64,000 nucleotides of DNA. It comes from Escherichia phage F2. The stretch lies in the sequence record NC_054913.1. The stretch is one strand, 5' to 3'. This document shows positions 5,774-39,159 of the stretch, one piece after another. The notes beneath the pieces were generated by a model, which saw only the letters and a program-made list of their open reading frames with translations, ran no database searches and was not told where the DNA came from. The translations under genes and the position numbers were made by a program. Within the stretch, counting starts at the first letter, position 1, and each line of letters opens with the position of its first letter.

Positions 5774-6055
5774 ATGAAAAAATTAGTAATTGGTTTATTC
5801 ACAGTAATGATGGCATTCTCTGTTGGTGCTACCACGGGTGCTGCTGGCGGTAGTGCAGGAGCTGGTGGTAACCAGTCTTCTGGGCCTTCTAATGGTTCGG
5901 TAAATGCATCACATTCTCAGGGTATTGAGAACATTAAATCAAGCTATATTAATAGCACGGCCGGACAAGCAACTGAAGCATGGTCAAAGGGACGAGTAGT
6001 TACTCGCTCCGTATTCTGTGATATGCCTAATTATGTTGCTAAGTGCGATAAGTAA
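5774..6055 (+). CDS. hypothetical secreted Gly/Ser-rich protein
   Basis: Signal peptide MKKLVIGLFTVMMAFSVGA followed by Gly-rich low-complexity region. Confidence 0.55.
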   Translation: MKKLVIGLFTVMMAFSVGATTGAAGGSAGAGGNQSSGPSNGSVNASHSQGIENIKSSYINSTAGQATEAWSKGRVVTRSVFCDMPNYVAKCDK

Positions 6056-6058
6056 ATG

Positions 6059-6080
6059 TGGGGACCTTCGGGTCCCTTTA
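6059..6080 (+). terminator. terminator hairpin (UUCG tetraloop)
   Basis: gggaccttcgggtccc followed by T-rich tract. Confidence 0.5.
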
Positions 6081-6107
6081 GGGGGTTAAAATATTTTTAA
6101 AAAAGTA

Positions 6108-6136
6108 GTGTACATGCTTTTAGGATATGTTATTAT
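6108..6136 (+). promoter_or_regulatory. T4-type early promoter
   Basis: gtgtac 6108-6113, tattat 6131-6136. Confidence 0.5.
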
Positions 6137-6174
6137 AGACCTATCGAAACGAAATGAGTAAATTGGAGAATAAA

Positions 6175-7155
6175 ATGTTCAACGTTCAAATCAAAAAAGG
6201 TATCTATCGTAATAACGAAATCTCTGGTTCTTATGTTGCCACAAAGACCTGGTTCCCGGCAAAGCTTAATCCTGAATGTTCCCACTTAGGTGATGGTAAA
6301 ATCTTCGTTATGATTGACGGTTCTGAACGTGGAGTATGGGTCTTCAAATCAGACATCGTAATGGAAGGAGTTGAGACATCACCAGTTGCAGTCGTTGAAA
6401 GCACTGAAGATATGAAAACTCGTATCAACAAACGCTTTAAAGTAATGAACATGATGACGAATGGCATTATCGATGGTAAAATTCGTTCACTCATTATTTC
6501 AGGTGCAGCTGGTATTGGTAAGACGTATTCTCTGGATAAAGCACTTAATAACGCTAATGATAATGGTTTCATCAAATACAAAAGCATTAATGGTAAAATC
6601 TCTGGTATCGGCCTTTACGAACAACTTTGGCTCAACCGTGATGCAGACAGCGTTCTCTTAATCGACGACGTTGACGTATTCTCAGATATGGACATCTTGA
6701 ACCTTCTTAAAGCAGCATTAGATACTGGAGATAAACGCAAAGTTTGTTGGAGCACTGCGTCATCTTATCTCGATGATAAGGGTATTGATAAAGAATTTGA
6801 GTTTGAAGGTACTATCGTTTTCATTACAAACGTTGATATCGATAAAGAGTTAGAACGCGGTTCGAAACTTGCCCCACACCTTCAAGCTTTAGTATCTCGT
6901 TCAGTGTATCTCGACCTTGGAGTACACTCTAATGAAGAGATTATGGTTCGAGTTGAAGATGTAATATTATCTACTGACATGATGCAGAAACGTGGTCTGA
7001 CGGATGCAGAAACGTATAAAGCATTGTCCTGGATGAAGGCTAACGTATCTCGTCTTCGCAATGTATCATTACGTACGGCTCTTTACGTAGCAGATTTTAT
7101 TTCAACTGATAAAGATGGTTGGGAAGAAATCTCGGAAGTTACTTTATTGAAATAA
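6175..7155 (+). CDS. P-loop NTPase (AAA-like ATPase)
   Basis: Walker A GAAGIGKT, Walker B LLIDDVD; ORF track 6154..7155, ATG 6175 has GGAG RBS. Confidence 0.65.
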   Translation: MFNVQIKKGIYRNNEISGSYVATKTWFPAKLNPECSHLGDGKIFVMIDGSERGVWVFKSDIVMEGVETSPVAVVESTEDMKTRINKRFKVMNMMTNGIIDGKIRSLIISGAAGIGKTYSLDKALNNANDNGFIKYKSINGKISGIGLYEQLWLNRDADSVLLIDDVDVFSDMDILNLLKAALDTGDKRKVCWSTASSYLDDKGIDKEFEFEGTIVFITNVDIDKELERGSKLAPHLQALVSRSVYLDLGVHSNEEIMVRVEDVILSTDMMQKRGLTDAETYKALSWMKANVSRLRNVSLRTALYVADFISTDKDGWEEISEVTLLK

Positions 7156-10972: not shown

Positions 10973-11228
10973 AGTGTACGGGTATGACTCTACTATTCAT
11001 AAATGCATTTATTGTGATAATGCGAAACGATTGCTGACTGTTAAGAAACAGCCATTCGAATTCATTAATGTTATGCCAGAAAAAGGTGTGTTCGATGATG
11101 AGAAAATTGCTGAGCTTCTGGTTAAGCTTGGACGTGAATCACAAGTCGGATTGACTATGCCTCAAGTGTTTGCTCCTGATGGAACTTCGATCGGTGGCTT
11201 TGACCAACTACGAGAATATTTTAAATGA
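10965..11228 (+). CDS. nrdC: thioredoxin/glutaredoxin NrdC
   Basis: MFKVYGYDSTIHKCIYCDNAK closely matches T4 NrdC; CxxC active site. Confidence 0.9.
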   Translation: MFKVYGYDSTIHKCIYCDNAKRLLTVKKQPFEFINVMPEKGVFDDEKIAELLVKLGRESQVGLTMPQVFAPDGTSIGGFDQLREYFK

Positions 11229-11581
11229 CATATTCATTAAATCTTAAAGATTTCCAAGATGTATACGAAGTTTGTGCCAATGAACTTGGTCCTGATGCTC
11301 CAACTATTATTGAAGTTTTAAATGTGCTCCCTTCATCATTAACTTACGAAGCCAAATCATGGGGTTGGAACGACACTGTCGTTCGTGATGACCTTTACGT
11401 CCTGATGAATGACATGATGATTAAAAAGGCAGAACCGGTTGCACCAATGGTTACCATTACCGTTGAAGAATATAATCGCCTGCAAGCCATTGAAGAGCTT
11501 CTGTGGAACATTGAATGTGACCTGCCGTCAGGGCTAGAATCCTGGATTGATTATGAAGAGCTCAATAAACTCCGGGGTTAA
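11225..11581 (+). CDS. hypothetical protein
   Basis: ORF overlapping nrdC stop. Confidence 0.5.
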   Translation: MTYSLNLKDFQDVYEVCANELGPDAPTIIEVLNVLPSSLTYEAKSWGWNDTVVRDDLYVLMNDMMIKKAEPVAPMVTITVEEYNRLQAIEELLWNIECDLPSGLESWIDYEELNKLRG

Positions 11582-11709
11582 GCCATGGTATTCTGCTCGT
11601 TGGGAGACTGTCGAGCCAGACGTTGAAACAGTTTATAACGACGAAGAAACGTGTTATGATGAACCTACAGTAAACGATATGATTGATTTGGAAATGGGAA
11701 GAGATTATT

Positions 11710-11880
11710 ATGCAAGTTAAATTATTGTACCGTTTATTAAAAAATGGCAAGCATGATTGGTATTTGCTTATTAAAACAGATCCGAATTTTTTCTCTGGAC
11801 AACCATTTACAGTTCGTCCTACTAAACGTCAGCTTCGCAAAGCTAAACGTTCTCATCGTAACTTTTATAGAGAATATTGA
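11710..11880 (+). CDS. small basic hypothetical protein
   Basis: ATG 11710 in ORF track 11683..11880; C-terminal VRPTKRQLRK tail shared with 43143..43355. Confidence 0.4.
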   Translation: MQVKLLYRLLKNGKHDWYLLIKTDPNFFSGQPFTVRPTKRQLRKAKRSHRNFYREY

Positions 11881-11881
11881 T

Positions 11882-12307
11882 ATGAATATTTCTGAAACTC
11901 GCGGTAAATGGTTCAAGATTGTTAAAGAAGATGAAGAACTACAAGTCAAGTTTCCTGAATTAAAGAAAGGAACAATCATCAAGGTAATTGGTACTACTAC
12001 CGAAGATGGTTATGGTGCCCATGGCATTATCGAAGTGATGTTGAACACAGGTGAGAAACTTTGCATCTATGACCGTGATACTTCTCTTTGGTGCTTCTGG
12101 GAATCACATTCAATAGATGAACTCGAAGAAATTGATTCGGCTGATATTGCGGATGTGCTAGGTAGTAAACTTGGCGAATTCGAAGGTGAACGAATTTCTT
12201 ATGCATTAGCTAAATTAGCCGGACAAGAAAATAACGACGGCTATGAAGGTAACCTGATGCAAGCAGCCGCAGAATACATTGAATATTTAGAAAGACGTTT
12301 AAGTTAA
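11882..12307 (+). CDS. hypothetical protein
   Basis: ATG 11882 right after upstream stop; ORF track 11744..12307. Confidence 0.5.
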   Translation: MNISETRGKWFKIVKEDEELQVKFPELKKGTIIKVIGTTTEDGYGAHGIIEVMLNTGEKLCIYDRDTSLWCFWESHSIDELEEIDSADIADVLGSKLGEFEGERISYALAKLAGQENNDGYEGNLMQAAAEYIEYLERRLS

Positions 12308-29758: not shown

Positions 29759-32470
29759 ATGAAAGAATTTTACTTAACGGTTGAACAGATTGGTGATTCA
29801 ATTTTTGAACGTTACATCGATTCTAACGGCCGTGAACGTACTCGTGAAGTAGAATATAAACCATCACTGTTTGCTCATTGTCCGGAAAGTCAGGCTACGA
29901 AATATTTCGATATCTACGGTAAGCCGTGTACTCGTAAGTTGTTCGCTAATATGCGTGATGCCTCACAATGGATTAAACGCATGGAAGATATCGGTCTTGA
30001 AGCACTTGGCATGGACGATTTCAAATTGGCGTATTTGTCTGACACTTATAACTATGAAATCAAATACGACCATACAAAAATTCGTGTGGCTAACTTCGAC
30101 ATCGAAGTAACATCTCCGGATGGGTTCCCTGAGCCATCACAAGCAAAACATCCGATTGATGCTATCACCCATTATGACTCAATTGACGACAGGTTCTACG
30201 TATTTGATCTATTGAATTCTCCATATGGTAATGTAGAAGAATGGTCTATCGAAATTGCGGCTAAGCTTCAAGAACAAGGTGGAGATGAAGTTCCATCTGA
30301 AATTATCGATAAAATCATTTATATGCCGTTCGATAACGAAAAAGAATTGTTGATGGAATATCTCAACTTCTGGCAACAGAAAACTCCTGTCATTTTGACT
30401 GGATGGAACGTTGAGTCATTTGATATTCCATATGTGTATAACCGAATCAAGAATATTTTTGGTGAATCTACTGCGAAACGTTTATCACCACATCGTAAAA
30501 CTCGTGTTAAAGTTATCGAAAACATGTATGGTTCTCGTGAAATCATTACATTGTTCGGTATCTCTGTTCTTGATTACATTGACCTTTACAAAAAATTCTC
30601 TTTTACCAATCAACCGTCATATTCTCTTGATTACATTTCAGAATTTGAATTGAACGTTGGTAAACTGAAATATGACGGCCCTATTTCTAAGCTTCGTGAA
30701 AGCAATCACCAACGATATATTTCTTATAACATTATCGACGTGTATCGTGTATTGCAAATTGATGCTAAGCGTCAGTTCATCAACTTGAGTTTGGACATGG
30801 GTTATTATGCTAAGATACAGATTCAATCTGTTTTTAGCCCAATTAAAACATGGGATGCTATTATTTTTAATAGCCTTAAAGAGCAGAACAAGGTGATTCC
30901 ACAAGGTCGTTCTCACCCGGTTCAACCTTATCCTGGCGCTTTTGTTAAGGAACCTATTCCAAATCGATACAAATATGTAATGAGTTTCGACCTTACATCT
31001 CTGTATCCAAGTATTATTCGCCAAGTGAATATTAGCCCAGAAACAATAGCAGGAACGTTTAAAGTAGCTCCATTGCATGATTATATTAACGCTGTTGCTG
31101 AACGTCCTTCTGATGTGTACAGTTGTTCTCCTAACGGCATGATGTATTATAAAGACCGTGATGGTGTTGTTCCAACTGAAATCACTAAGGTCTTTAATCA
31201 ACGTAAAGAACATAAAGGTTACATGCTTGCAGCTCAACGTAATGGTGAAATAATTAAAGAGGCATTGCATAATCCTAATCTTTCTGTTGACGAACCATTA
31301 GATGTTGATTATCGTTTCGACTTCAGTGATGAGATTAAAGAAAAGATTAAAAAGTTGTCTGCTAAATCTCTTAATGAAATGTTGTTTAGAGCTCAACGTA
31401 CTGAAGTTGCAGGTATGACTGCCCAAATTAACCGTAAATTGCTTATCAACTCACTTTATGGTGCACTTGGCAACGTTTGGTTCCGTTATTATGATTTGCG
31501 TAATGCTACTGCAATCACAACATTTGGTCAAATGGCTTTACAGTGGATTGAACGTAAAGTTAATGAATATCTGAATGAAGTTTGTGGCACAGAAGGTGAA
31601 GCTTTCGTTCTTTATGGTGATACAGACTCTATTTACGTATCTGCTGATAAAATTATCGATAAGGTTGGTGAATCTAAATTCCGTGATACCAACCATTGGG
31701 TAGACTTCTTAGATAAGTTTGCACGTGAACGTATGGAACCAGCTATTGATAGAGGTTTCCGTGAAATGTGTGAATACATGAACAATAAACAACACTTAAT
31801 GTTCATGGACCGAGAAGCTATCGCTGGGCCTCCACTCGGTTCTAAAGGTATTGGTGGATTCTGGACTGGTAAGAAACGTTATGCATTAAACGTGTGGGAT
31901 ATGGAAGGTACTCGTTACGCTGAGCCTAAACTCAAAATCATGGGTCTAGAGACTCAGAAATCTTCGACTCCTAAAGCAGTACAGAAAGCTCTTAAAGAAT
32001 GTATTCGTCGTATGCTTCAAGAAGGTGAAGAATCATTACAAGAATATTTTAAAGAGTTTGAAAAAGAATTCCGTCAATTGAATTATATTAGCATCGCGTC
32101 GGTATCTTCTGCGAATAACATTGCTAAATATGATGTAGGTGGATTCCCTGGTCCCAAATGTCCATTCCATATTCGTGGAATTCTGACGTATAACCGGGCT
32201 ATCAAAGGTAATATCGATGCACCGCAAGTTGTAGAAGGTGAAAAAGTATATGTTCTGCCTTTACGTGAAGGAAACCCATTCGGTGATAAATGTATCGCAT
32301 GGCCTTCTGGTACTGAAATCACAGATTTAATTAAAGACGACGTACTTCATTGGATGGACTACACTGTTCTCCTTGAGAAGACATTTATTAAACCACTTGA
32401 AGGATTCACATCAGCAGCGAAACTCGATTATGAGAAGAAAGCATCTCTGTTCGATATGTTCGATTTTTGA
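29759..32470 (+). CDS. 43: DNA polymerase gp43 (family B)
   Basis: 903 aa; N-terminus MKEFYLTVEQIGDSIFERY and exo/pol motifs (DIE, YGDTDS) match the RB69 polymerase as remembered. Confidence 0.98.
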   Translation: MKEFYLTVEQIGDSIFERYIDSNGRERTREVEYKPSLFAHCPESQATKYFDIYGKPCTRKLFANMRDASQWIKRMEDIGLEALGMDDFKLAYLSDTYNYEIKYDHTKIRVANFDIEVTSPDGFPEPSQAKHPIDAITHYDSIDDRFYVFDLLNSPYGNVEEWSIEIAAKLQEQGGDEVPSEIIDKIIYMPFDNEKELLMEYLNFWQQKTPVILTGWNVESFDIPYVYNRIKNIFGESTAKRLSPHRKTRVKVIENMYGSREIITLFGISVLDYIDLYKKFSFTNQPSYSLDYISEFELNVGKLKYDGPISKLRESNHQRYISYNIIDVYRVLQIDAKRQFINLSLDMGYYAKIQIQSVFSPIKTWDAIIFNSLKEQNKVIPQGRSHPVQPYPGAFVKEPIPNRYKYVMSFDLTSLYPSIIRQVNISPETIAGTFKVAPLHDYINAVAERPSDVYSCSPNGMMYYKDRDGVVPTEITKVFNQRKEHKGYMLAAQRNGEIIKEALHNPNLSVDEPLDVDYRFDFSDEIKEKIKKLSAKSLNEMLFRAQRTEVAGMTAQINRKLLINSLYGALGNVWFRYYDLRNATAITTFGQMALQWIERKVNEYLNEVCGTEGEAFVLYGDTDSIYVSADKIIDKVGESKFRDTNHWVDFLDKFARERMEPAIDRGFREMCEYMNNKQHLMFMDREAIAGPPLGSKGIGGFWTGKKRYALNVWDMEGTRYAEPKLKIMGLETQKSSTPKAVQKALKECIRRMLQEGEESLQEYFKEFEKEFRQLNYISIASVSSANNIAKYDVGGFPGPKCPFHIRGILTYNRAIKGNIDAPQVVEGEKVYVLPLREGNPFGDKCIAWPSGTEITDLIKDDVLHWMDYTVLLEKTFIKPLEGFTSAAKLDYEKKASLFDMFDF

Positions 32471-32510
32471 TATAATGTCATGGACGGTAAACTAATTAAA
32501 TGAGAGAAAT

Positions 32511-33146
32511 ATGAAAACTACTCCTATTACTATCGCTATTGACGCAATCATAAAACAAGCTTCTTCTTTGGCCGCTATGGCCAAAGTAATTAGTCAAAAC
32601 CCTGCTCGTTATAATGCTATTCTAGAAACTCTTCGACGCCCAGGACTTAGTAATTATGAAAGCCGAGTAATTATTACAGGTGTTGGTAAGAATGCTAATA
32701 TTGCAACTAAAGCTTCTGAGACATTTGCTTCACTCGGTATCCCGAGTATGTACTTGAACACTGGACATTATTCTCACGGTGATGCAGGATTCATTGCGCC
32801 TAATGATGTGTTGATTCATATTAGTCGTTCTGGTAAAACTGAAGAAATGATAGGCGTGGCTAAGCATCTTAAAATGATTCGTCCGAACGTCAAACAGATT
32901 CTGTTGCATTGTAACCCGGACATTCCACAAGAATACGAAGCTCTTTTTGATTATACGTTCTGTACAGGCATCGCAGTAGAGGTTGATGAGAATTCTCTGG
33001 CTCCGACCATGTCCACTACATTGTTGTTAGCGCTTATCGATACGTTTGCTATCAACCTTTCGTCTGAACGTGGATTTACCTCTAATGACTTCCTTAAGTT
33101 CCACCCTGGCGGTGCACTAGGTGCCATGTTACGAGGCGAACAATGA
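32511..33146 (+). CDS. SIS-domain sugar-phosphate isomerase (arabinose-5-phosphate isomerase-like)
   Basis: SIS motifs VIITGVGKNANIATKA and HISRSGKTEE. Confidence 0.75.
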   Translation: MKTTPITIAIDAIIKQASSLAAMAKVISQNPARYNAILETLRRPGLSNYESRVIITGVGKNANIATKASETFASLGIPSMYLNTGHYSHGDAGFIAPNDVLIHISRSGKTEEMIGVAKHLKMIRPNVKQILLHCNPDIPQEYEALFDYTFCTGIAVEVDENSLAPTMSTTLLLALIDTFAINLSSERGFTSNDFLKFHPGGALGAMLRGEQ

Positions 33147-33286
33147 AAGCAATAACAATAGGACTTTTACTATTGATGCTTGTCATGACTATCTACTGGA
33201 GCTTAACGGCTCCAGTAATGATTCCGACTCTTATAATCGGATGGATTATGATTGGACTACAAGCAAAGTATGAATGCTTTAACTAG
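33143..33286 (+). CDS. small hydrophobic protein (47 aa)
   Basis: ATG overlapping upstream stop; two predicted TM segments. Confidence 0.35.
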   Translation: MKAITIGLLLLMLVMTIYWSLTAPVMIPTLIIGWIMIGLQAKYECFN

Positions 33287-33299
33287 AATAGTGTACAAT
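33275..33299 (+). promoter_or_regulatory. T4-type middle promoter
   Basis: TGCTTTA 33275-33281, 12-bp spacer, tacaat 33294-33299. Confidence 0.55.
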
Positions 33300-33327
33300 A
33301 CTCCTACTTACCAATGAGGACCACAAC

Positions 33328-35013
33328 ATGAAAAAAGCTGTTATTCTTGGTGCTGGACTGGCAACTCGTTTGTATCCAATAACGCATCATATTCCTAAGG
33401 TGCTTGTTAACTATAAACAAGACACTATTCTGAGCAATTTGTATACAATTTATTCTGACCTTGGCGCAGATGAAATTATTGTAGTAGTTCATTCAAAATT
33501 TGCTGAAACTGTTCGAGCTTATTGTGAGCAAGAAGGGTTCAATGTGACTATTCGTACAGTTGATGAAGCGTATGGTTCTGCTTATGCTCTTGCTAAATTG
33601 CACAAAGATTTAGACGGCCATAATGTAATTGTTAACTGGTGTGATATTATTCCTGATTTTGGTTCATGGTCTTGGAATGTTAACGCAATCTATGTTAAGG
33701 GTGACGAATGTCGATATAATTTCGACGGTGAAAATATCACTAATGTAGGTTCAACAGGTGGTAATGTTGTAGGAATTTATCAGTTCAAAGACTGGGAATT
33801 CTATATGGGTTCTACTGATGAGGAAATTCATGAATACTGCAAAGGACGTGATTTCGTAGAATTCCTTTACGGCAGCGCATTCAATAAATCAGAGCTTATG
33901 AATCTAATTGATTTAGGTGATATGCCTAAACTTGAAAAAGCTCATGAAGTTCGTGAACTTAATCGTAGTTTTAATGCAGTTGAAATTGGTGAAGAAACTG
34001 TAACTAAATTCGCATTAACCGAACAGGGCCGAGCTCTTCAGAAAGATGAGATTTCATGGTATCTTAAAGTGAAATCAGATTCAGTTCCTCAGTTAGTTTC
34101 TGTTAATGAAAATAACTTTGAAATGGAACGCATTAAAGGTAAGCCGGCATTTGAATATATTAAATCCAAATCAAGTCTTGCTCGTCCACAAATTGTTGAT
34201 GCAATTTTAGATGCACTGAAATTCAGCACAGACACTTATTTTGTAAGTCCTGAAACTGTTCGTCGTGATTTCACTAAAGAATTCTATACTAAAGTTATTG
34301 ATCGTTGTGAAAGTATTCAACCATTGATTGATTCATTTGGTAAAATCACACATGTGAACTACACTAAGATCGGACGTCTGAAGCCAATGTTGAAACAAGC
34401 TTTAGAACACCTTATTCGTTATCATAACCGTTCTCAGGGACAGTACTCTGTTATTCATGGTGACCCGAACTTCAGTAATACTATGATTACTGATAACGGC
34501 GAAGTCAAGTTTATCGACCCTCGTGGATATTTTGGTGAAACCAAGATTTACGGGCCAAAATTGTATGATGAAGCTAAAGTGCTTTACGCTGTTTCAGGTT
34601 ATGATGAATTCAACGCTAATCCGACTTGGGGACAGTTTACTATTGATGAAACAACTTGTAATGTGACTATTAACATCAATCCATTAGTTTACAAATATGG
34701 AAAGATGAGTTCGTTTAACGAGTATCATCATTTGGCAGTGGCAATTATCTGGATTGCATTAGGTGGTTATTTCAAGAATAATCCACTTAAAGCGGTAGCC
34801 GCATATTATAAAGGTATGGAACTTCTGACTAAGCAATTACGTAATATGGGCCGTGTACTTCAAGACGGCTCTATTAGTTATGACGTAGCAGAACCTGTAA
34901 CGGCTACTCTGATTACAAAAAATCCTGGTAAATGGGTACTAACTGATAAAGAAACTGGTGTTTCCTATCGTCCAATCGGTGGCGATATCACTCATCAATG
35001 GGAACGAATCTAA
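33328..35013 (+). CDS. bifunctional sugar-1-phosphate nucleotidyltransferase / sugar kinase
   Basis: N-terminal GAGLATRLYPIT (RmlA-type NTP-transferase signature); C-terminal kinase-like HGDPNFSNTMI...KFIDPRG (APH/choline-kinase-like). Confidence 0.8.
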   Translation: MKKAVILGAGLATRLYPITHHIPKVLVNYKQDTILSNLYTIYSDLGADEIIVVVHSKFAETVRAYCEQEGFNVTIRTVDEAYGSAYALAKLHKDLDGHNVIVNWCDIIPDFGSWSWNVNAIYVKGDECRYNFDGENITNVGSTGGNVVGIYQFKDWEFYMGSTDEEIHEYCKGRDFVEFLYGSAFNKSELMNLIDLGDMPKLEKAHEVRELNRSFNAVEIGEETVTKFALTEQGRALQKDEISWYLKVKSDSVPQLVSVNENNFEMERIKGKPAFEYIKSKSSLARPQIVDAILDALKFSTDTYFVSPETVRRDFTKEFYTKVIDRCESIQPLIDSFGKITHVNYTKIGRLKPMLKQALEHLIRYHNRSQGQYSVIHGDPNFSNTMITDNGEVKFIDPRGYFGETKIYGPKLYDEAKVLYAVSGYDEFNANPTWGQFTIDETTCNVTININPLVYKYGKMSSFNEYHHLAVAIIWIALGGYFKNNPLKAVAAYYKGMELLTKQLRNMGRVLQDGSISYDVAEPVTATLITKNPGKWVLTDKETGVSYRPIGGDITHQWERI

Positions 35014-35399
35014 TGCACCGTGTAGAAAACATGCTTAATCTTTGTTTTGATGTCGACGATTGTATAACAGAGTGGAATAACAATCGTGATTACGTGAACT
35101 TCAAGCCAGACGTCGAAATGGTGACTGCCATTAATGCCCTGTATGATGCAGGGCATACCATAACGCTTTACACTGCTCGCGGTATGAAGTCAGTCGGTCC
35201 TGGTCGTATAGCAATTGACATTCTCCCAAGTCTGATTCAGAACTTGGCAAACATTGGATTGAAGTACCATAATTTGCTAACACATAAACCAGTATATGAT
35301 TGGATTATCGACGACAAAGCTATGCGTCCTGACGAATTCAAAGCTCTTATGAATAAAGGCGAATTCGAAACATTTAAATCATATAAACCGAATCTATAA
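35013..35399 (+). CDS. HAD-superfamily phosphatase
   Basis: Motif I FDVDDCIT; motif II TLYTARG; ATG 35013 overlaps upstream stop. Confidence 0.65.
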   Translation: MHRVENMLNLCFDVDDCITEWNNNRDYVNFKPDVEMVTAINALYDAGHTITLYTARGMKSVGPGRIAIDILPSLIQNLANIGLKYHNLLTHKPVYDWIIDDKAMRPDEFKALMNKGEFETFKSYKPNL

Positions 35400-35446
35400 T
35401 AATTTAAGTAAGACCTGCAAAAACCATCGCATCAATTAACGGCGAG

Positions 35447-36616
35447 ATGCAAAAAATGAATACCTTTAAAATCGGAACGAATTTTGATTTAGCTCTTCTT
35501 GATAAAATCGTAGAGCTCAATAAAACTTATCCTAATAGCTTGATAAACGAAGTATACGGCTCTACAAGAGAAATGGCTTTTGTAGCAGCCAGACCTGATT
35601 TTAGGCTTCCTGACGTTGACAAAAAGATGTTAGAAGATTACGTTAAACGTTGTAACGAATTAGGTATTTGCTTTAACTATACACTCAACACGATAAATCC
35701 TGGTTCAAAAAGAGAACTAGTTGAGTGGAAGAAGAAAGCTATTCAGGACTATGTTCAGTATCTTTGGTCAATAGGCGTATGGCGTATTACTATCGCTAAC
35801 CCTGTTGTTATGGAAATTGTTCGTGAAGTCAATAAAGACATTGAGATTGAAGTTTCAACAATTCTACATGTCGATGCTGTAACTCAAATCAAATACTTGC
35901 ATGACCAATATAATATCAAAAAGGTCTGCTGTGGAATTCATAAGAACCGTTCAGTTTCTTTCCTGAAGCGTGCAGCAGAGTTTTGTAATAAGAACAATAT
36001 AATATTTGAAGTTCTTGTAAATGAGTTCTGTTCTAATGCTGGTAAAGGGTATACAACACATTGTAGCTATCGTGACTCTTGCTATATTTTCCATAGCACC
36101 GATGTTACAGTAGATGATGCCAAATCCTTAAATGGATATCCAATGCAGCACTGTATTAAAGCTCGTGATACAGACCCATTTAACTGGTTGAGAACTCGTT
36201 TTGTTCGTCCTCAAGATTTGAAACTTTATAATGATATTGGTATCACTCAATTCAAAGTTTCAGGACGTACAGGTAGCACCGACTACATTTTGAAAGTTCT
36301 TGAAGCTTACGCTTCTGAAAAGTTTGAAGGTAATTTGTTGGAATTGTGGAAGCCTTTAGAGACCATTTTCACTCTTGAAAATGAGACTGAGTTTTCACAT
36401 ACGGTAAATATTGAAACCTCTTTGTTAGATGGCTTTTTAGAAAAAAGGTGGTTCAAACATCCAGATTTCGATTGTGCTAATGAAATCTGCGGGACGACGT
36501 GTACATATTGTGAAAGATATTATAAACGTCAGTTATCTAAAAATGGGTTATCAGAAAACTCTATATCTATTATTGATATAACTAACTCTGATGACGCTTT
36601 GAGGTACCCAGAATGA
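35447..36616 (+). CDS. hypothetical enzyme, Cys-rich (function unassigned)
   Basis: 389-aa ORF with GGCGAG RBS; C-terminal Cys cluster CANEICGTTCTYCERYY. Confidence 0.55.
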   Translation: MQKMNTFKIGTNFDLALLDKIVELNKTYPNSLINEVYGSTREMAFVAARPDFRLPDVDKKMLEDYVKRCNELGICFNYTLNTINPGSKRELVEWKKKAIQDYVQYLWSIGVWRITIANPVVMEIVREVNKDIEIEVSTILHVDAVTQIKYLHDQYNIKKVCCGIHKNRSVSFLKRAAEFCNKNNIIFEVLVNEFCSNAGKGYTTHCSYRDSCYIFHSTDVTVDDAKSLNGYPMQHCIKARDTDPFNWLRTRFVRPQDLKLYNDIGITQFKVSGRTGSTDYILKVLEAYASEKFEGNLLELWKPLETIFTLENETEFSHTVNIETSLLDGFLEKRWFKHPDFDCANEICGTTCTYCERYYKRQLSKNGLSENSISIIDITNSDDALRYPE

Positions 36617-36762
36617 TTTCTAGAAAAACTTTTAACCACCAACTTAACGAAGAGATTTTGACTATTAAAATTAACAGCAACGAACAAATTCTTAAAAAGG
36701 CCCTTATGGGCCTGTTTGAAACTAAAGCGGCTAAAGTGATTAAAGAACCTGTTCAATTGTAA
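36613..36762 (+). CDS. small hypothetical protein (49 aa)
   Basis: ATG overlapping upstream stop. Confidence 0.3.
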   Translation: MISRKTFNHQLNEEILTIKINSNEQILKKALMGLFETKAAKVIKEPVQL

Positions 36763-36850
36763 TACTACGCTGATGCATTTCTTCATAGTGTTCTTGGAAG
36801 TATCGATGCTGAAGCTTTACGTTATATCAACATCGCTAAGAAATTCAAAT

Positions 36851-36875
36851 AAGCTTTATGAATTGAGTATATAAT
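36851..36875 (+). promoter_or_regulatory. T4-type middle promoter
   Basis: aGCTTTA 36851-36857, 12-bp spacer, tataat 36870-36875. Confidence 0.5.
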
Positions 36876-36894
36876 AAATTGTATTGAGGTAAAC

Positions 36895-37611
36895 ATGGGA
36901 AAACATAACACAATGAAATATATTAAAGCCGCAGATTTTCAATCCGCATTTAAAGCTGTCAATCGTGAAATTTTAGAAAACCCGGAATTCGTTACTGATT
37001 CTCGTATTGGACGTTGTAATGAAATTGGGTCTATGACAGTAGTTGTTGATACCCCTTCATCATTCAAAATGACAGACCCACGTATTAATCGCATCTCTTA
37101 TGAATATGCTGAAGATTTCTGGAAATTTATGATTTCTGGTGGTACTGATGCAGAAGAAGCATTTAAGGCATATCCTAACGTTGCTAAATTTATTTCTAAA
37201 CCTAAATCAGATGCTTTGCCTGCAAACTTCAACACTTTCTACGGTCCACGAATTGCGGCCCAGTTACCAACTCTTCTAAAAGAACTTAAAGAAAAACCTA
37301 ACTCTCGAAGAGTTGTGTTCCAAATTCTAGAAAGTTCTGATCAGGCTTTGCTTGATTCAGACGAAACACTTGAATATCCATGTACTGACTCAGTGACTTA
37401 TTATATTCGTGATGGTAAGCTTTATACCCACTGTCATATGCGTTCTCAGAACTGTGCTGTTGTTATGCAGTTGGATTTTTATCTCCAAGGAAAATTACTT
37501 CATTATATCGCTAACGAATGTGGTGTAGAAGTTGGTGATTATACTCATACCATGGTAAGTGCCCATGTGTTTGAACGTGATTTTGATTATGTTAAAGGAT
37601 TCCTTGTCTAA
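36895..37611 (+). CDS. 42: dCMP hydroxymethylase (thymidylate-synthase fold)
   Basis: Position and conserved pattern NSRR...CTDSVTYYIRD...MRSQN...SAHVFERDF resembling T4 gp42. Confidence 0.7.
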   Translation: MGKHNTMKYIKAADFQSAFKAVNREILENPEFVTDSRIGRCNEIGSMTVVVDTPSSFKMTDPRINRISYEYAEDFWKFMISGGTDAEEAFKAYPNVAKFISKPKSDALPANFNTFYGPRIAAQLPTLLKELKEKPNSRRVVFQILESSDQALLDSDETLEYPCTDSVTYYIRDGKLYTHCHMRSQNCAVVMQLDFYLQGKLLHYIANECGVEVGDYTHTMVSAHVFERDFDYVKGFLV

Positions 37612-38510
37612 TGGCTATTTTCCGCGTACCTATCTTGAGTATGCGGTCTTATGAAACTGGACAGTATGCTATCCTTAAGGATGGCAACTTCCAACTTCAT
37701 TTGCACCGTGCTAATCCGGGTGATGTGATTACATATCCACGTAATGCATCTGATATTAAAGAATGCGAACGTCTTTTCCCAGAATTTAAGTTTGTTCCAT
37801 TATGGTATAAAGATAACGCATATAACACTCGTAAATATTTCTGGTCTGAAAATGAATTTGTGGTTGATTCATTAATTGATTATTATGATTGTGATTTTCT
37901 AATCACAGATATCACTGGATATGACGGCAATTTTGACGTAGAATTCAATTTCAATATCACTGCAGACCCTAATAAACCACGTTTTTATATTGACGAATTC
38001 TTAAAAACCGACATGTTGTCTGTTAATCGTTCACTTCAAACTACTGTGTTGAATGAACGTCAAAAAGAAGTGCTGGTTAACGCAGGTGCAGATGGTAATA
38101 AGATTATCGTAACGCAGAAAGTTATACGTCCTTCCATCATGCAGCGTCTTGTAGGTGATTTGGCTCCTATTCATCTAGATGGTATTTTTCATCCATTTCG
38201 AATTAGTGACCCGTGCTATCGTTTTGAACAAGTGGTTGAATGTGCAATTCAATTAGGTCAACCGCTTTATATAACCGATCCAAATAATAGCTTCGACAGA
38301 AATAAGTATCCTGAAGAAGCGCTGATTCGAATTTTTAAACCAACTAAAACTGAGTACTATCAAATTCTTAAAGGACGTCCGAAGATTCAATACTTCGAAA
38401 ATCCTGAAGAAGTATTCCATCCAGGTCTTGGCGAGTTCATCTACTTTAATGCTTTAATTTCTTCGCCGTATAATATACCTAAATATGAAGATGTCGTAAT
38501 CGAGGAATAA
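37611..38510 (+). CDS. hypothetical protein in beta-gt position (candidate DNA sugar transferase)
   Basis: 299-aa ORF replacing T4 beta-gt between 42 and uvsX; no recognisable beta-gt similarity. Confidence 0.5.
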   Translation: MAIFRVPILSMRSYETGQYAILKDGNFQLHLHRANPGDVITYPRNASDIKECERLFPEFKFVPLWYKDNAYNTRKYFWSENEFVVDSLIDYYDCDFLITDITGYDGNFDVEFNFNITADPNKPRFYIDEFLKTDMLSVNRSLQTTVLNERQKEVLVNAGADGNKIIVTQKVIRPSIMQRLVGDLAPIHLDGIFHPFRISDPCYRFEQVVECAIQLGQPLYITDPNNSFDRNKYPEEALIRIFKPTKTEYYQILKGRPKIQYFENPEEVFHPGLGEFIYFNALISSPYNIPKYEDVVIEE

Positions 38511-38511
38511 A

Positions 38512-39060
38512 ATGGCTAAAATTATTTTAGTAGATGGCCCGGATAATGCTGGTAAAACAACTTTCATTAATGACATAATGGAAATTAGTGAAAGATATGT
38601 AAAGATTGATTTCCCTAAACGAACAGTTGATGGACGTTTCGATGTTAAGTCTCGAAATGAAGTTGGCTGTTTCGAAACGATGTTGAATTATTTAGACCCT
38701 ACTAAGATTTATCTGTTAGACCGTGGATATATTAGTAACTGGGTTTATGGACGTATTCGACAAGATGCGGACTCGGTTCTTGACGTTTATGAACAGGATT
38801 ATGTTCGTCTTTGCCAAAACCATGATGTGTTCACAATTATTTTAACACGTAACGAAATGACTGAAAGTTTTGAAGACGACCTTATTACTTTGTCTTCATT
38901 CAGGTTTAATACAGTCATTTCGTATTTTGAAGAGTTTGCAATTCATAACGAAATCCAAACGTATCAATTACTTAATCATGATGGTGCTAACAAAGTTATA
39001 GGATTTAATGCAAGCGAACGTAATAATTTGATTACAGAAATTATCAAATGGGCTCGTTAA
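38512..39060 (+). CDS. P-loop nucleoside/nucleotide kinase-like protein
   Basis: Walker A VDGPDNAGKTT at N-terminus; 182 aa. Confidence 0.6.
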   Translation: MAKIILVDGPDNAGKTTFINDIMEISERYVKIDFPKRTVDGRFDVKSRNEVGCFETMLNYLDPTKIYLLDRGYISNWVYGRIRQDADSVLDVYEQDYVRLCQNHDVFTIILTRNEMTESFEDDLITLSSFRFNTVISYFEEFAIHNEIQTYQLLNHDGANKVIGFNASERNNLITEIIKWAR

Positions 39061-39159
39061 GAGCCTGTTTAAAGTTTTAAATGCTGTATAACCCTTAGTA
39101 TATAATCGTCTTATCTTTTAAACATGAGTAAAATATAATGATGCCTATGGAAAAATACA

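What the first reader, a model, noticed from the sequence alone, without database searches (positions are those of the whole stretch)
35447..36616. Cys-rich 389-aa enzyme of unknown function inside the sugar cassette
It is co-located and co-oriented with the isomerase/kinase/NTase/phosphatase genes and has a C-terminal CxxxC...CxxC cluster suggesting metal or Fe-S binding. I considered a U32-family assignment but the canonical U32 signature is not present, so function is open; it could modify the sugar or the base.
Basis: inference. Interest (0 to 1): 0.55.

Follow-up and report, generated by a model that had tools for sequence, protein, structure and literature searches.

The report
Phage U32 iron-sulfur hydroxylase candidate
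This RB69-type phage gene encodes a virus-specific member of the U32 iron-sulfur family, and it most likely makes the 5-hydroxycytosine needed for the phage's sugar-coated DNA without oxygen, using the metabolite prephenate, which would explain how a gut phage modifies its DNA when its known oxygen-requiring enzyme cannot work.

Summary
The ORF is real: 35447-36616, + strand, 389 aa. It is the orthologue of RB69 gp50 (RB69p050, "peptidase").

Three of the four canonical U32 Fe-S cysteines align (C206, C212, C236). A relocated Cys (C195) and a C-terminal CX4CX3CX2C cluster are conserved across a large, almost purely viral clade (427 clusters at E<=1e-30).

Published work shows that RB69 DNA carries arabosylated 5-hydroxycytosine, made by the neighbouring gene gp48. 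That enzyme needs flavin and O2. gp50 has no assigned role. Characterised U32 proteins (UbiU/V, TrhP, RlhA) act in O2-independent, prephenate-dependent hydroxylation, two of them at pyrimidine C5.

New findings here:
- In 13 of 15 related Straboviridae loci a chorismate mutase gene, which makes prephenate, lies directly after the U32 gene.
- Distant phage relatives carry DAHP synthase-chorismate mutase fusions beside it.
- Those distant relatives have the sugar-activation, glycosyltransferase, dNMP-kinase and MazG genes, but no thymidylate-synthase-type hydroxylase nearby.
- The cassettes of Acinetobacter (strict aerobe) phages examined lack the U32 gene.

Best reading (confidence about 0.55): gp50 is an O2-independent cytosine-C5 hydroxylase. 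This is not experimentally tested.

The parts
35447..36616 (+). gp50 orthologue: a U32-family Fe-S protein of 389 aa. The likely true start is 35456, giving 386 aa.
   Evidence: ORF. Pfam PF01136 at 42.4 bits vs cut-off 22.4. phrog_5757. 99.2% identical to RB69 NP_861740.1. Model pLDDT 86.9, pTM 0.88. Top PDB hit 5d88. dN/dS 0.04.
35735..36313 (+). Peptidase_U32 (PF01136) domain, aa 97-289, within a beta/alpha barrel.
36029..36154 (+). Central Cys motif C195-x10-C206-x5-C212-x23-C236. C206, C212 and C236 align with Fe-S ligands 1-3 of UbiU, TrhP and RlhA. C195 lies in a clade-specific insertion.
   Evidence: MAFFT alignment with the E. coli paralogues. Invariant in the family alignment. C195 and C236 are present in 129/129 clade representatives.
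36254..36268 (+). K270-V-S-G-R274, the 'KxxGR' motif shared with UbiU, TrhP and RlhA (KIEGR).
   Evidence: K270 and R274 are present in 129/129 representatives.
36473..36511 (+). C-terminal cluster C343-x4-C348-x3-C352-x2-C355, a candidate site for a second Fe-S cluster or metal.
   Evidence: Invariant in A1. Present in 96-113 of 129 clade representatives. Absent from UbiU, UbiV and TrhP. RlhA also needs C-terminal Cys residues.
36613..36762 (+). Truncated equivalent of RB69 ORF049c (49 aa instead of 79), cut short by GAA>TAA at 36760. This is the slot where other genera carry a chorismate mutase gene.
36895..37611 (+). gp48 orthologue: a thymidylate-synthase-family 5-hydroxy-dCMP synthase that depends on flavin and O2.
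   Evidence: Pfam Thymidylat_synt. 99.2% identical to RB69 gp48. Activity and 18O2 labelling are reported in PMC13326640.
32511..33146 (+). Arabinose-5-phosphate isomerase (gp55 orthologue).
33328..35013 (+). Bifunctional kinase / UDP-arabinose pyrophosphorylase (gp52:53, AfhE-like). It is intact here, whereas the RB69 record splits it.
34998..35399 (+). HAD phosphatase (gp51, AfhF-like).
37611..38510 (+). Arabinosyltransferase 1 (gp46:47 orthologue), intact here.
38512..39060 (+). Nucleotide kinase (gp45 orthologue).

Best explanation
gp50 is a virus-specific U32-family iron-sulfur enzyme. I propose that it catalyses O2-independent hydroxylation of cytosine C5 and takes the oxygen atom from prephenate. 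The substrate is most likely dCMP or another deoxycytidine nucleotide, and less likely cytosine already in DNA.

On this reading gp50 supplies the 5-hydroxycytosine that the phage arabinosyltransferases glycosylate. It works in parallel with the adjacent flavin- and O2-dependent 5-hydroxy-dCMP synthase gp48, so the phage can hypermodify its DNA in the anoxic gut. This matches the host's own paired systems: UbiI/H/F with UbiU/V, and TrhO with TrhP.

Proposed mechanism:
1. The barrel [4Fe-4S] cluster (C206, C212, C236 plus C195) and the C-terminal 4-Cys site carry away the two electrons from oxidation of the pyrimidine.
2. Decarboxylation of prephenate releases the hydroxyl group that is added at C5.

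In RB69-type phages the prephenate comes from host PheA/TyrA. In most other genera a phage chorismate mutase encoded next to the U32 gene supplies it.

What is shown: family membership, the fold, Cys conservation, the genomic coupling and the phyletic pattern. What is inferred: metal binding, prephenate use, the substrate and the anaerobic role.
For: 1. Family membership. Pfam U32 is above threshold. The top PDB fold hit is 5d88. The best profile match among E. coli paralogues is RlhA, the cytidine-C5 hydroxylation factor (E 4.4e-5). Fe-S ligands 1-3 and the KxxGR motif align.

2. Family chemistry. UbiU/V, TrhP and RlhA all act in O2-independent, prephenate- and Fe-S-dependent hydroxylation. 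TrhP and RlhA act at pyrimidine C5 (PMC10990095, PMC6599085, PMC5727448).

3. The need. gp48 requires O2 (18O2 labelling and a flavin cofactor, PMC13326640). The hosts are facultative anaerobes.

4. Prephenate coupling, found here. A Pfam-confirmed CM_2 chorismate mutase gene lies directly downstream of the U32 gene in 13/15 Straboviridae loci and in 51 phage records. It is absent from the U32-less clusters of Bp7 and DLP3. Distant relatives carry DAHPS-CM fusions, stand-alone DAHPS or stand-alone CM beside the U32 gene. These are DAHPS-type, not Kdo8P-synthase-type. The key CM active-site residues are retained.

5. Non-orthologous displacement pattern. All 15 Straboviridae loci have gp48 within 2 kb. 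In contrast, 25/26 distant loci have no TS-like gene within 10 kb, yet they carry homologues of arabinosyltransferase 1, the NTase/kinase, SIS, a dNMP kinase and MazG. One recurring arrangement is MazG - dNMP kinase - GT - U32.

6. Phyletic pattern. The U32 gene is in 220 phage records, and every host genus listed is Enterobacterales or Shewanella. The gp48 type is in 344 records, including 57 Acinetobacter phages. The DLP3 cassette lacks the U32 gene.

7. Habitat of the distant relatives. The only 3 cellular-genome hits among about 185,000 species are MAG contigs binned to obligate-anaerobe lineages.

8. Conservation. dN/dS is 0.04, and gp50 is the most or second most conserved protein of the cassette between genera.

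9. No step left for the sugar pathway. UDP-arabinose synthesis and the final nucleoside structure are explained without gp50.
Against: - There is no experiment on gp50 or any member of its clade.
- Even for UbiU/V, TrhP and RlhA, direct hydroxylase activity has not been reconstituted in vitro (PMC10990095).
- The literal U32 Cys signature is not matched. The fourth canonical Cys is missing, and C206 and C212 are kept in only about 60% of the wider clade.
- About 50 enterobacterial phages, such as the Dhakavirus Bp7, have gp48 but no U32 gene, so it is not required on facultative anaerobes.
- This window's own lineage has lost the chorismate mutase gene.
- In distant phages the conserved order SIS - NTase/kinase - HAD - U32 would also fit a sugar-related role.
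- The absence of TS genes was tested only within +/-10 kb of the U32 gene.
- No FNR-type anaerobic control site was found.
- The papers by He et al. 2026 and Mahler et al. 2025 could not be read. They may already assign a role to this gene.
Confidence: 0.55

Rival explanations
1. gp50 acts on the sugar branch. It would modify arabinose-5-P, UDP-arabinose or the attached arabinose, for example as a 'sugar or heterocycle reductase' or an unspecified UDP-arabinose biosynthesis enzyme.
For: It lies between the phosphatase and the rest of the cassette. The order SIS - NTase/kinase - HAD - U32 recurs in distant phages. PMC13326640 Table 1 labels it 'Sugar or heterocycle reductase'. BASEL phage records call it 'putative enzyme involved in UDP-arabinose biosynthesis'. 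Foldseek also gives weaker hits to TIM-barrel reductases and aldolases.
Against: UDP-arabinofuranose synthesis from arabinose-5-P is reported as reconstituted with AfhE and AfhF alone. The NMR structures of RB69 and DLP3 nucleosides contain only arabinose on 5hoC, and DLP3 lacks the gene. Several distant loci have the U32 gene beside dCMP deaminase, a dNMP kinase, MazG and a GT, with no sugar-activation genes nearby. No U32 protein is known to act on sugars. This reading does not explain the chorismate mutase and DAHPS partners.
Confidence: 0.12
2. gp50 hydroxylates RNA, as TrhP and RlhA do. It would modify host or phage tRNA or rRNA to tune translation during infection, and its place in the DNA-modification cassette would be incidental.
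For: Its closest characterised relatives by profile are RlhA and TrhP. The chorismate mutase coupling would fit any prephenate-dependent U32 reaction.
Against: It lacks the C-terminal domains of RlhA (653 aa, with DUF3656) and TrhP (453 aa); only the U32 domain is found in 389 aa. Its position next to the dCMP hydroxylase, glycosyltransferase and dNMP-kinase genes is conserved across very divergent phages. E. coli already has trhP and rlhA.
Confidence: 0.1
3. gp50 is a true protease, as the database names 'peptidase U32' and 'collagenase' say. It would process a phage or host protein.
For: The annotation in RefSeq and PHROGs. Some U32 proteins, such as PrtC, were historically reported as collagenases.
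Against: No catalytic mechanism for U32 proteolysis is known. All genetically characterised members are hydroxylation factors. Ten invariant Cys, the Fe-S ligand alignment, and the partnerships with chorismate mutase/DAHPS and nucleotide-metabolism genes have no rationale for a protease.
Confidence: 0.03
4. gp50 supports gp48 rather than replacing it. It would be an Fe-S redox partner, for example one that reduces the flavin of the 5-hydroxy-dCMP synthase or protects or repairs it.
For: The gene is adjacent to gp48 in all 15 Straboviridae loci. gp48 needs a reduced flavin, and no dedicated reductase is known. Two putative metal sites would suit electron transfer.
Against: Most distant clade members have no TS homologue nearby. 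DLP3 and Bp7 run gp48-type enzymes without it. This reading does not explain the chorismate mutase and DAHPS coupling.
Confidence: 0.08

Closest known systems
RlhA (YdcP), the E. coli 23S rRNA 5-hydroxycytidine-2501 formation factor (U32 family)
   Same: It has a U32 barrel domain and is the best profile match. The motif YSGQCYISH aligns with YRDSCYIFH, and Fe-S Cys 1-3 and KxxGR are shared. It needs a separate C-terminal Cys cluster, depends on Fe-S clusters and prephenate, and hydroxylates C5 of cytosine.
   Different: RlhA has 653 aa, carries DUF3656 and acts on ribosomal RNA. gp50 has 389 aa with no extra domain. Its Cys spacing is Cx5C...x23...C with a relocated fourth Cys, and its C-terminal CX4CX3CX2C cluster is different. 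Its proposed substrate is a deoxynucleotide or DNA.
TrhP (YegQ) paired with TrhO: dual prephenate-dependent and O2-dependent routes to ho5U34 in tRNA
   Same: TrhP is a U32 protein acting at pyrimidine C5 and is paired with an unrelated O2-dependent enzyme that makes the same product. The gp50/gp48 pair has the same logic.
   Different: TrhP acts on tRNA uridine, has a C-terminal extension, and carries the canonical CX6CX15CX3C motif. The O2-dependent partner here is a flavin-dependent thymidylate-synthase homologue, not a rhodanese.
UbiU-UbiV, the O2-independent ubiquinone hydroxylases
   Same: They belong to the U32 family and bind [4Fe-4S] through the aligned Cys residues. Prephenate has been proven to be their O-donor by 18O labelling. 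They back up flavin- and O2-dependent hydroxylases.
   Different: They form a heterodimer of two U32 proteins, use the lipid-binding partner UbiT, and act on a quinone substrate. gp50 is a single polypeptide with two putative metal sites. Its NCBIfam UbiU score is 19 bits against a cut-off of 440.
RB69 gp48 / DLP3 gp80 5-hydroxy-dCMP synthase (thymidylate synthase superfamily)
   Same: Under the best explanation both make the same product, and the two genes are adjacent.
   Different: The fold and chemistry are unrelated (flavin plus O2). gp48 activity is shown experimentally; gp50 activity is not.
Mk0906 (PDB 5d88), the U32 protein of Methanopyrus kandleri
   Same: It is the best structural match (Foldseek E 4e-7, TM 0.70 normalised to the target).
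   Different: It shares 11% identity, has no known function, and covers only the barrel core. It lacks the C-terminal Cys cluster.

Membership tests
Peptidase_U32 superfamily (Pfam PF01136) | Profile HMM match above the curated gathering score | tested here: met
   42.4 bits against a cut-off of 22.4, over aa 97-289. All close homologues carry PF01136.
Peptidase_U32 superfamily (Pfam PF01136) | TIM-barrel-like fold of the solved U32 structure | tested here: met
   AF2 model with pLDDT 86.9. The top Foldseek PDB hit is 5d88, with E 4e-7 and TMt 0.70.
Canonical U32 hydroxylation factors (UbiU/UbiV/TrhP/RlhA type) | Four-Cys motif CX6CX15CX3-4C (the literal U32 signature) that ligates a [4Fe-4S] cluster | tested here: not met
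   Cys 1-3 align (C206, C212, C236), but the spacing is Cx5C-x23-C, the +4 Cys is absent, and an 11-aa insertion breaks the signature. C195, present in 129/129 clade members, may replace the fourth ligand. This places gp50 in a distinct subfamily rather than in one of the E. coli types.
Canonical U32 hydroxylation factors (UbiU/UbiV/TrhP/RlhA type) | Binds a [4Fe-4S] cluster that is required for activity | not testable with these tools
   Only inferred, from 10 invariant Cys residues.
Canonical U32 hydroxylation factors (UbiU/UbiV/TrhP/RlhA type) | Dependence on prephenate or the shikimate pathway | tested here: inconclusive
   There is no biochemical test. The indirect genomic evidence is strong: CM_2 and/or DAHPS genes lie beside the U32 gene in 13/15 Straboviridae loci and in at least 8 distant loci. 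This window's own phage lacks them.
Canonical U32 hydroxylation factors (UbiU/UbiV/TrhP/RlhA type) | O2-independent hydroxylation of an aromatic or heteroaromatic carbon | not testable with these tools
   This needs anaerobic in vivo or in vitro assays.
RlhA subfamily | U32 domain plus DUF3656 and the C-terminal Cys region, about 650 aa | tested here: not met
   Pfam finds only PF01136 in 389 aa. The RlhA alignment stops at residue 256 of RlhA.
UbiU / UbiV equivalogs (NCBIfam) | Score above the equivalog cut-off | tested here: not met
   NF047963 UbiU scores 19.3 bits against a cut-off of 440.
Radical SAM enzymes (considered because of the CX3CX2C stretch C348-C352-C355) | Radical_SAM domain with an N-terminal CX3CX2C in a partial TIM barrel | tested here: not met
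   There is no Radical_SAM Pfam hit at E<=0.1. The motif sits in the C-terminal tail, outside the barrel.
Thymidylate-synthase-family 5-hydroxy-dCMP synthases | Thymidylat_synt fold with a catalytic Cys | tested here: not met
   gp50 has no TS domain. It would be a functional analogue only.

The most novel reading that the evidence does not exclude
gp50 would represent a large, essentially virus-only clade of U32 enzymes: at least 427 clusters at 50% identity. These would be prephenate-dependent pyrimidine-nucleotide C5 hydroxylases. This would be the first U32 enzymes working on DNA precursors and the first O2-independent route to a hypermodified DNA base.

In many uncultured large phages of anaerobes the U32 enzyme, not a thymidylate-synthase homologue, would be the only enzyme making the hydroxyl handle. 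That handle would be 5-hydroxy-C and, where a dCMP deaminase is adjacent, perhaps 5-hydroxy-U. These phages would also boost host prephenate supply with their own DAHP synthase and chorismate mutase. If so, there is a broad, unexplored set of glycosylated 5-hydroxypyrimidine DNAs in anoxic habitats.
Probability: 0.4. Interest if true: 0.85.

Novelty: new variant of a known kind. Interest (0 to 1): 0.72.

Why it matters
- **An open gap in the pathway.** The known pathway to arabinosyl-5-hydroxycytosine DNA starts with an enzyme that consumes O2, yet these phages prey on gut bacteria that usually live without oxygen. A prephenate-dependent U32 hydroxylase would close that gap.
- **A new substrate class for U32 chemistry.** It would extend the recently recognised 'organic O-donor' hydroxylation from quinones and RNA to DNA building blocks.
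- **A tractable model enzyme.** gp50 is small and soluble, and its product is easy to assay. The U32 reaction has never been reconstituted in vitro, so such a model would be useful.
- **An explanation for odd phage genes.** It would explain why phages carry chorismate mutase and DAHP synthase genes.
- **Relevance to phage therapy.** Mosigviruses are used therapeutically, and DNA modification decides whether they are sensitive to restriction, CRISPR and type IV systems. The modification state under anoxia may differ from what aerobic laboratory cultures show.

Tried and rejected
- **PDB sequence search.** A phmmer search with gp50 gave no hit at E<=1.
- **Weak single-sequence comparisons.** hhalign to UbiU and UbiV was near noise. 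Only a joint MAFFT alignment revealed the Cys correspondence.
- **FNR-box search.** TTGAT-N4-ATCAA with up to 2 mismatches gave 94 hits against 84 +/- 10 expected, and none lies upstream of the gene. There is therefore no evidence of anaerobic transcriptional control.
- **Promoter and terminator scans.** Both were at chance level.
- **AlphaFold-database fold search.** The afdb50 library was unavailable.
- **Unreadable papers.** He et al. 2026 (Nat Chem Biol) and Mahler et al. 2025 (Cell Host Microbe) could not be read. Full-text searches combining U32 with phage DNA modification found nothing relevant. Thomas 2018 and the Thanatos paper do not discuss the gene.
- **Kdo8P synthase reading.** I considered that the PF00793 neighbours were Kdo8P synthases, which would have supported a sugar role. 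I rejected this because they score 199-281 bits on DAHPS models and about 60 bits on KDO8PS models.
- **Radical-SAM reading of CX3CX2C.** Rejected because there is no Radical_SAM domain and the motif is in the C-terminal tail.
- **A corrected error.** A first Cys-conservation table was wrong by a 3-residue offset caused by hmmalign --trim. It was redone.
- **RB69 ORF049c.** It has no Pfam family and is truncated in this window, so I did not pursue it as a partner protein.
Full report
**What the window is.** The region lies in the replication module of a T4-like phage: clamp loader, RegA, gp43 polymerase, UvsX and gp41. The stretch 32400-39100 is 97.8-98.8% identical to RB69-type Mosigviruses such as PNJ-6, HX01, HY126 and RB69. 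The flagged ORF (35447-36616, + strand, 389 aa) is the orthologue of RB69p050, annotated 'peptidase'.

**Checking the observation.** The ORF, its coordinates and its co-orientation with the neighbouring genes are as described.
- The C-terminal cluster reads C343-x4-C348-x3-C352-x2-C355.
- Cys content is 3.3% against 1.37% for the window (P = 0.003).
- Ten of the 13 Cys are invariant in 21 homologues down to 47% identity.
- dN/dS against RB69 and phiE142 is 0.04. Between genera the synonymous sites are saturated while the protein stays 83-89% identical, which makes gp50 the most or second most conserved protein of the cassette.
- A start at 35456 is more likely than 35447, because the Shine-Dalgarno spacing is better and several orthologues start there.

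**Family assignment.**
- The protein passes Pfam PF01136 (42.4 bits against a cut-off of 22.4).
- An AlphaFold model built on the family alignment is confident (pLDDT 86.9, pTM 0.88). Its best solved-structure match is the only U32 structure, 5d88; all other hits are generic TIM barrels.
- I fetched UbiU, UbiV, TrhP and RlhA from E. coli K-12. Profile comparison ranks RlhA first (E 4.4e-5).
- A joint alignment places gp50 C206, C212 and C236 on the first three [4Fe-4S] ligands (UbiU C169/C176/C193, TrhP C170/C177/C193, RlhA C169/C176/C192). It also places K270-x-x-G-R274 on their KIEGR motif.
- The literal signature is not matched: there is an 11-residue insertion, the spacing is Cx5C, and the +4 Cys is missing.
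- C195, inside the insertion, is present in 129/129 representatives of the wider clade, as are C236, K270 and R274. The C-terminal four Cys are present in 96-113 of 129.
- RlhA likewise needs Cys residues in its U32 motif plus a separate C-terminal Cys pair.

**What is already published.** Lee et al. (NAR 2026, PMC13326640) show the following.
- RB69 DNA carries mono- and di-arabinosylated 5-hydroxycytosine, not arabinosyl-hmC.
- The base is made as 5-hydroxy-dCMP by the thymidylate-synthase homologue gp48 (window 36895-37611).
- That enzyme binds a flavin and takes its oxygen from O2, shown by 18O2 labelling and confirmed in vitro by He et al. 2026 as cited there.
- UDP-arabinose comes from the isomerase, the AfhE-like kinase/pyrophosphorylase and the AfhF-like phosphatase.
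- gp50 appears only in a table, labelled 'Sugar or heterocycle reductase' with 5d88 as the structural hit. It is never discussed and was not tested.
- The paper mentions the RNA hydroxylation pathways but does not connect them with gp50.
- All cultures were aerobic.

I could not read He et al. 2026 or Mahler et al. 2025. Searches of the held library found no paper that links a U32 protein to phage DNA modification.

**What the U32 family does.** UbiU/V, TrhP and RlhA are Fe-S proteins needed for O2-independent hydroxylations. Prephenate is the proven O-donor for UbiU/V and is genetically required for TrhP and RlhA. Two of these systems hydroxylate C5 of a pyrimidine. Each backs up, or is backed up by, an O2-dependent enzyme. 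gp50 next to the O2-dependent gp48 has the same layout.

**New evidence 1: distribution.**
- The U32 gene occurs in 220 phage records, all at >=80% identity and full length. Every host genus listed is Enterobacterales or Shewanella, which are facultative anaerobes.
- The gp48 type occurs in 344 records, including 57 Acinetobacter phages.
- In DLP3 the phosphatase gene abuts the TS homologue with no U32 gene between them.
- The Dhakavirus Bp7 on E. coli also lacks it, so the gene is accessory.
- These patterns rest on only a handful of independent lineages.

**New evidence 2: a much larger viral clade.**
- Homologues at 48-58% identity sit on large phage-like contigs of up to 466 kb, with a DnaE-type polymerase, SSB and SLT.
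- An exhaustive profile search finds 427 clusters at E<=1e-30 and 1,098 at E<=1e-10.
- Among about 185,000 species genomes only three MAG contigs carry it. They are binned to Erysipelotrichales, Oscillospiraceae and Woesearchaeota, and they carry the same cassette.

**New evidence 3: gene neighbourhoods**. Around the distant U32 genes four arrangements recur:
- GT - SIS - NTase/kinase - HAD - U32, the same order as RB69 gp55, gp52:53, gp51 and gp50.
- The same order with a DAHP synthase-chorismate mutase fusion inserted.
- MazG - dNMP kinase - GT - U32 - DnaE. This is the T4-style hypermodification set, with the U32 gene where a TS-family enzyme would be expected.
- DnaE - dCMP deaminase - U32.

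The GT is a homologue of arabinosyltransferase 1, the enzyme that glycosylates the 5-OH of the base. All 15 Straboviridae loci have gp48 within 2 kb of the U32 gene. In contrast, 25 of 26 distant loci have no TS-like gene within 10 kb, and Pfam finds no TS or ThyX domain among the unannotated neighbours.

**New evidence 4: coupling to prephenate supply.**
- The fusion protein scores 88.7 bits on DAHP_synth_1 and 71.8 bits on CM_2.
- Stand-alone CM_2 genes lie beside the U32 gene in L042 and L051. DAHPS alone lies beside it in L003, L025 and the remote L055.
- NCBIfam identifies these as DAHP synthases (199-281 bits), not Kdo8P synthases (about 60 bits).
- The small ORF directly downstream of the U32 gene in 13 of 15 Straboviridae loci is also a CM_2 chorismate mutase (35.9-50.0 bits against a cut-off of 27).
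- It is found in 51 phage records, always between the U32 gene and the TS gene, and never in the U32-less clusters.
- The CM proteins keep R11, R28, K39, S84, Q88 and E52 of E. coli chorismate mutase. The compact Straboviridae versions lack R51.
- In the RlhA and TrhP studies, expressing a chorismate-mutase-only PheA was what rescued hydroxylation.
- In this window's lineage the CM gene is absent, and the ORF049c equivalent is cut short by a nonsense change at 36760. The phage would therefore depend on host PheA/TyrA.

**Interpretation.** The best-supported reading is that gp50 is a prephenate-dependent, O2-independent hydroxylase acting on cytosine C5. It probably acts at the nucleotide level, because the protein is small and has no nucleic-acid-binding extension, and because it keeps company with MazG and dNMP kinase genes. 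It would supply 5-hydroxycytosine in parallel with gp48.

The demand for prephenate would be large. By my own estimate a 170-kb genome at 37% G+C holds about 6 x 10^4 cytosines, multiplied by the burst size. That gives a reason for phage-encoded DAHPS and CM.

Family membership, the fold, Cys conservation, the gene coupling and the distribution are shown. Metal binding, prephenate use, the substrate and the anaerobic role are inferred. The rival readings (a sugar enzyme, an RNA hydroxylase, a protease, a redox helper of gp48) each fail to explain the CM/DAHPS coupling, the U32-without-TS loci, or both.

**Caveats.**
- No member of this clade has been studied experimentally, and no U32 hydroxylation has been reconstituted in vitro.
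- The canonical Cys signature is not met.
- Some enterobacterial phages do without the gene.
- The absence of TS genes was tested only within 10 kb.
- No FNR site was found.

**Verdict.** The gene is a new variant of a known kind, with a specific mechanism that can be tested directly.

Noticed in passing
window 36613-36762 (compare L001:7215-7454): The equivalent of RB69 ORF049c (79 aa, no Pfam family) is truncated to 49 aa in this phage by a single GAA>TAA change at 36760. The ORF is intact in RB69 and phiE142, and a related small ORF sits between the U32 gene and the CM gene in the PM2, Yersinia and L026 phages. Its function is unknown.
   Followed up: partly
L013-L026, about 11,160-11,900 (for example L015:11170-11409); absent from the window: A compact type II chorismate mutase gene (78-132 aa) lies directly downstream of the U32 gene in most non-Mosigvirus Straboviridae that carry the arabinosyl-5hoC cassette. 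A few GenBank records annotate it, but I found no paper discussing it. These compact versions lack the R51 equivalent and the H2-H3 loop of E. coli chorismate mutase.
   Followed up: yes
L002:7447-9086; L004:7504-9083: In very large phage-like contigs (up to 466 kb, with a DnaE polymerase) a dCMP deaminase gene directly precedes the U32 gene, with thymidylate-kinase-like and several UDG-family genes nearby. This hints that some clade members may hydroxylate dUMP rather than dCMP.
   Followed up: no
window 33328-35013 and 37611-38510: The NTase/kinase (561 aa) and arabinosyltransferase 1 (299 aa) are single intact ORFs here. The RB69 reference record splits each into two genes (p052/p053 and p046/p047). 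This agrees with the published view that those splits are sequencing errors.
   Followed up: partly
L033 (+1 and +4 genes after the U32 gene); L028 and L041 (cluster c38): Extra glycosyltransferase-like genes flank the distant U32 genes. One has a weak match to the TET-associated glycosyltransferase family (PF20691, 22.6 bits, below the cut-off). Another has a weak Exostosin/GT1-like match.
   Followed up: no
L051:7122-13105: On the Erysipelotrichales-binned contig the U32 gene is surrounded by a RimK-like ATP-grasp gene, an IF-1-like small ORF, a dTDP-4-dehydrorhamnose 3,5-epimerase (179.6 bits) and a metallophosphoesterase. This suggests a different sugar, perhaps rhamnose-type, on the modified base.
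   Followed up: no
window 36529-36786, minus strand: An 85-aa antisense ORF overlaps the 3' end of gp50 and the ORF049c remnant. It is most likely spurious, since the region is densely coding on the + strand.
   Followed up: no
L009 (Bp7) 5878-6378: The Dhakavirus cassette lacks both the U32 gene and a recognisable arabinose-5-P isomerase (no tblastn hit to gp55). It has a 166-aa hypothetical gene in that position and places the nucleotide kinase before the TS homologue.
   Followed up: no
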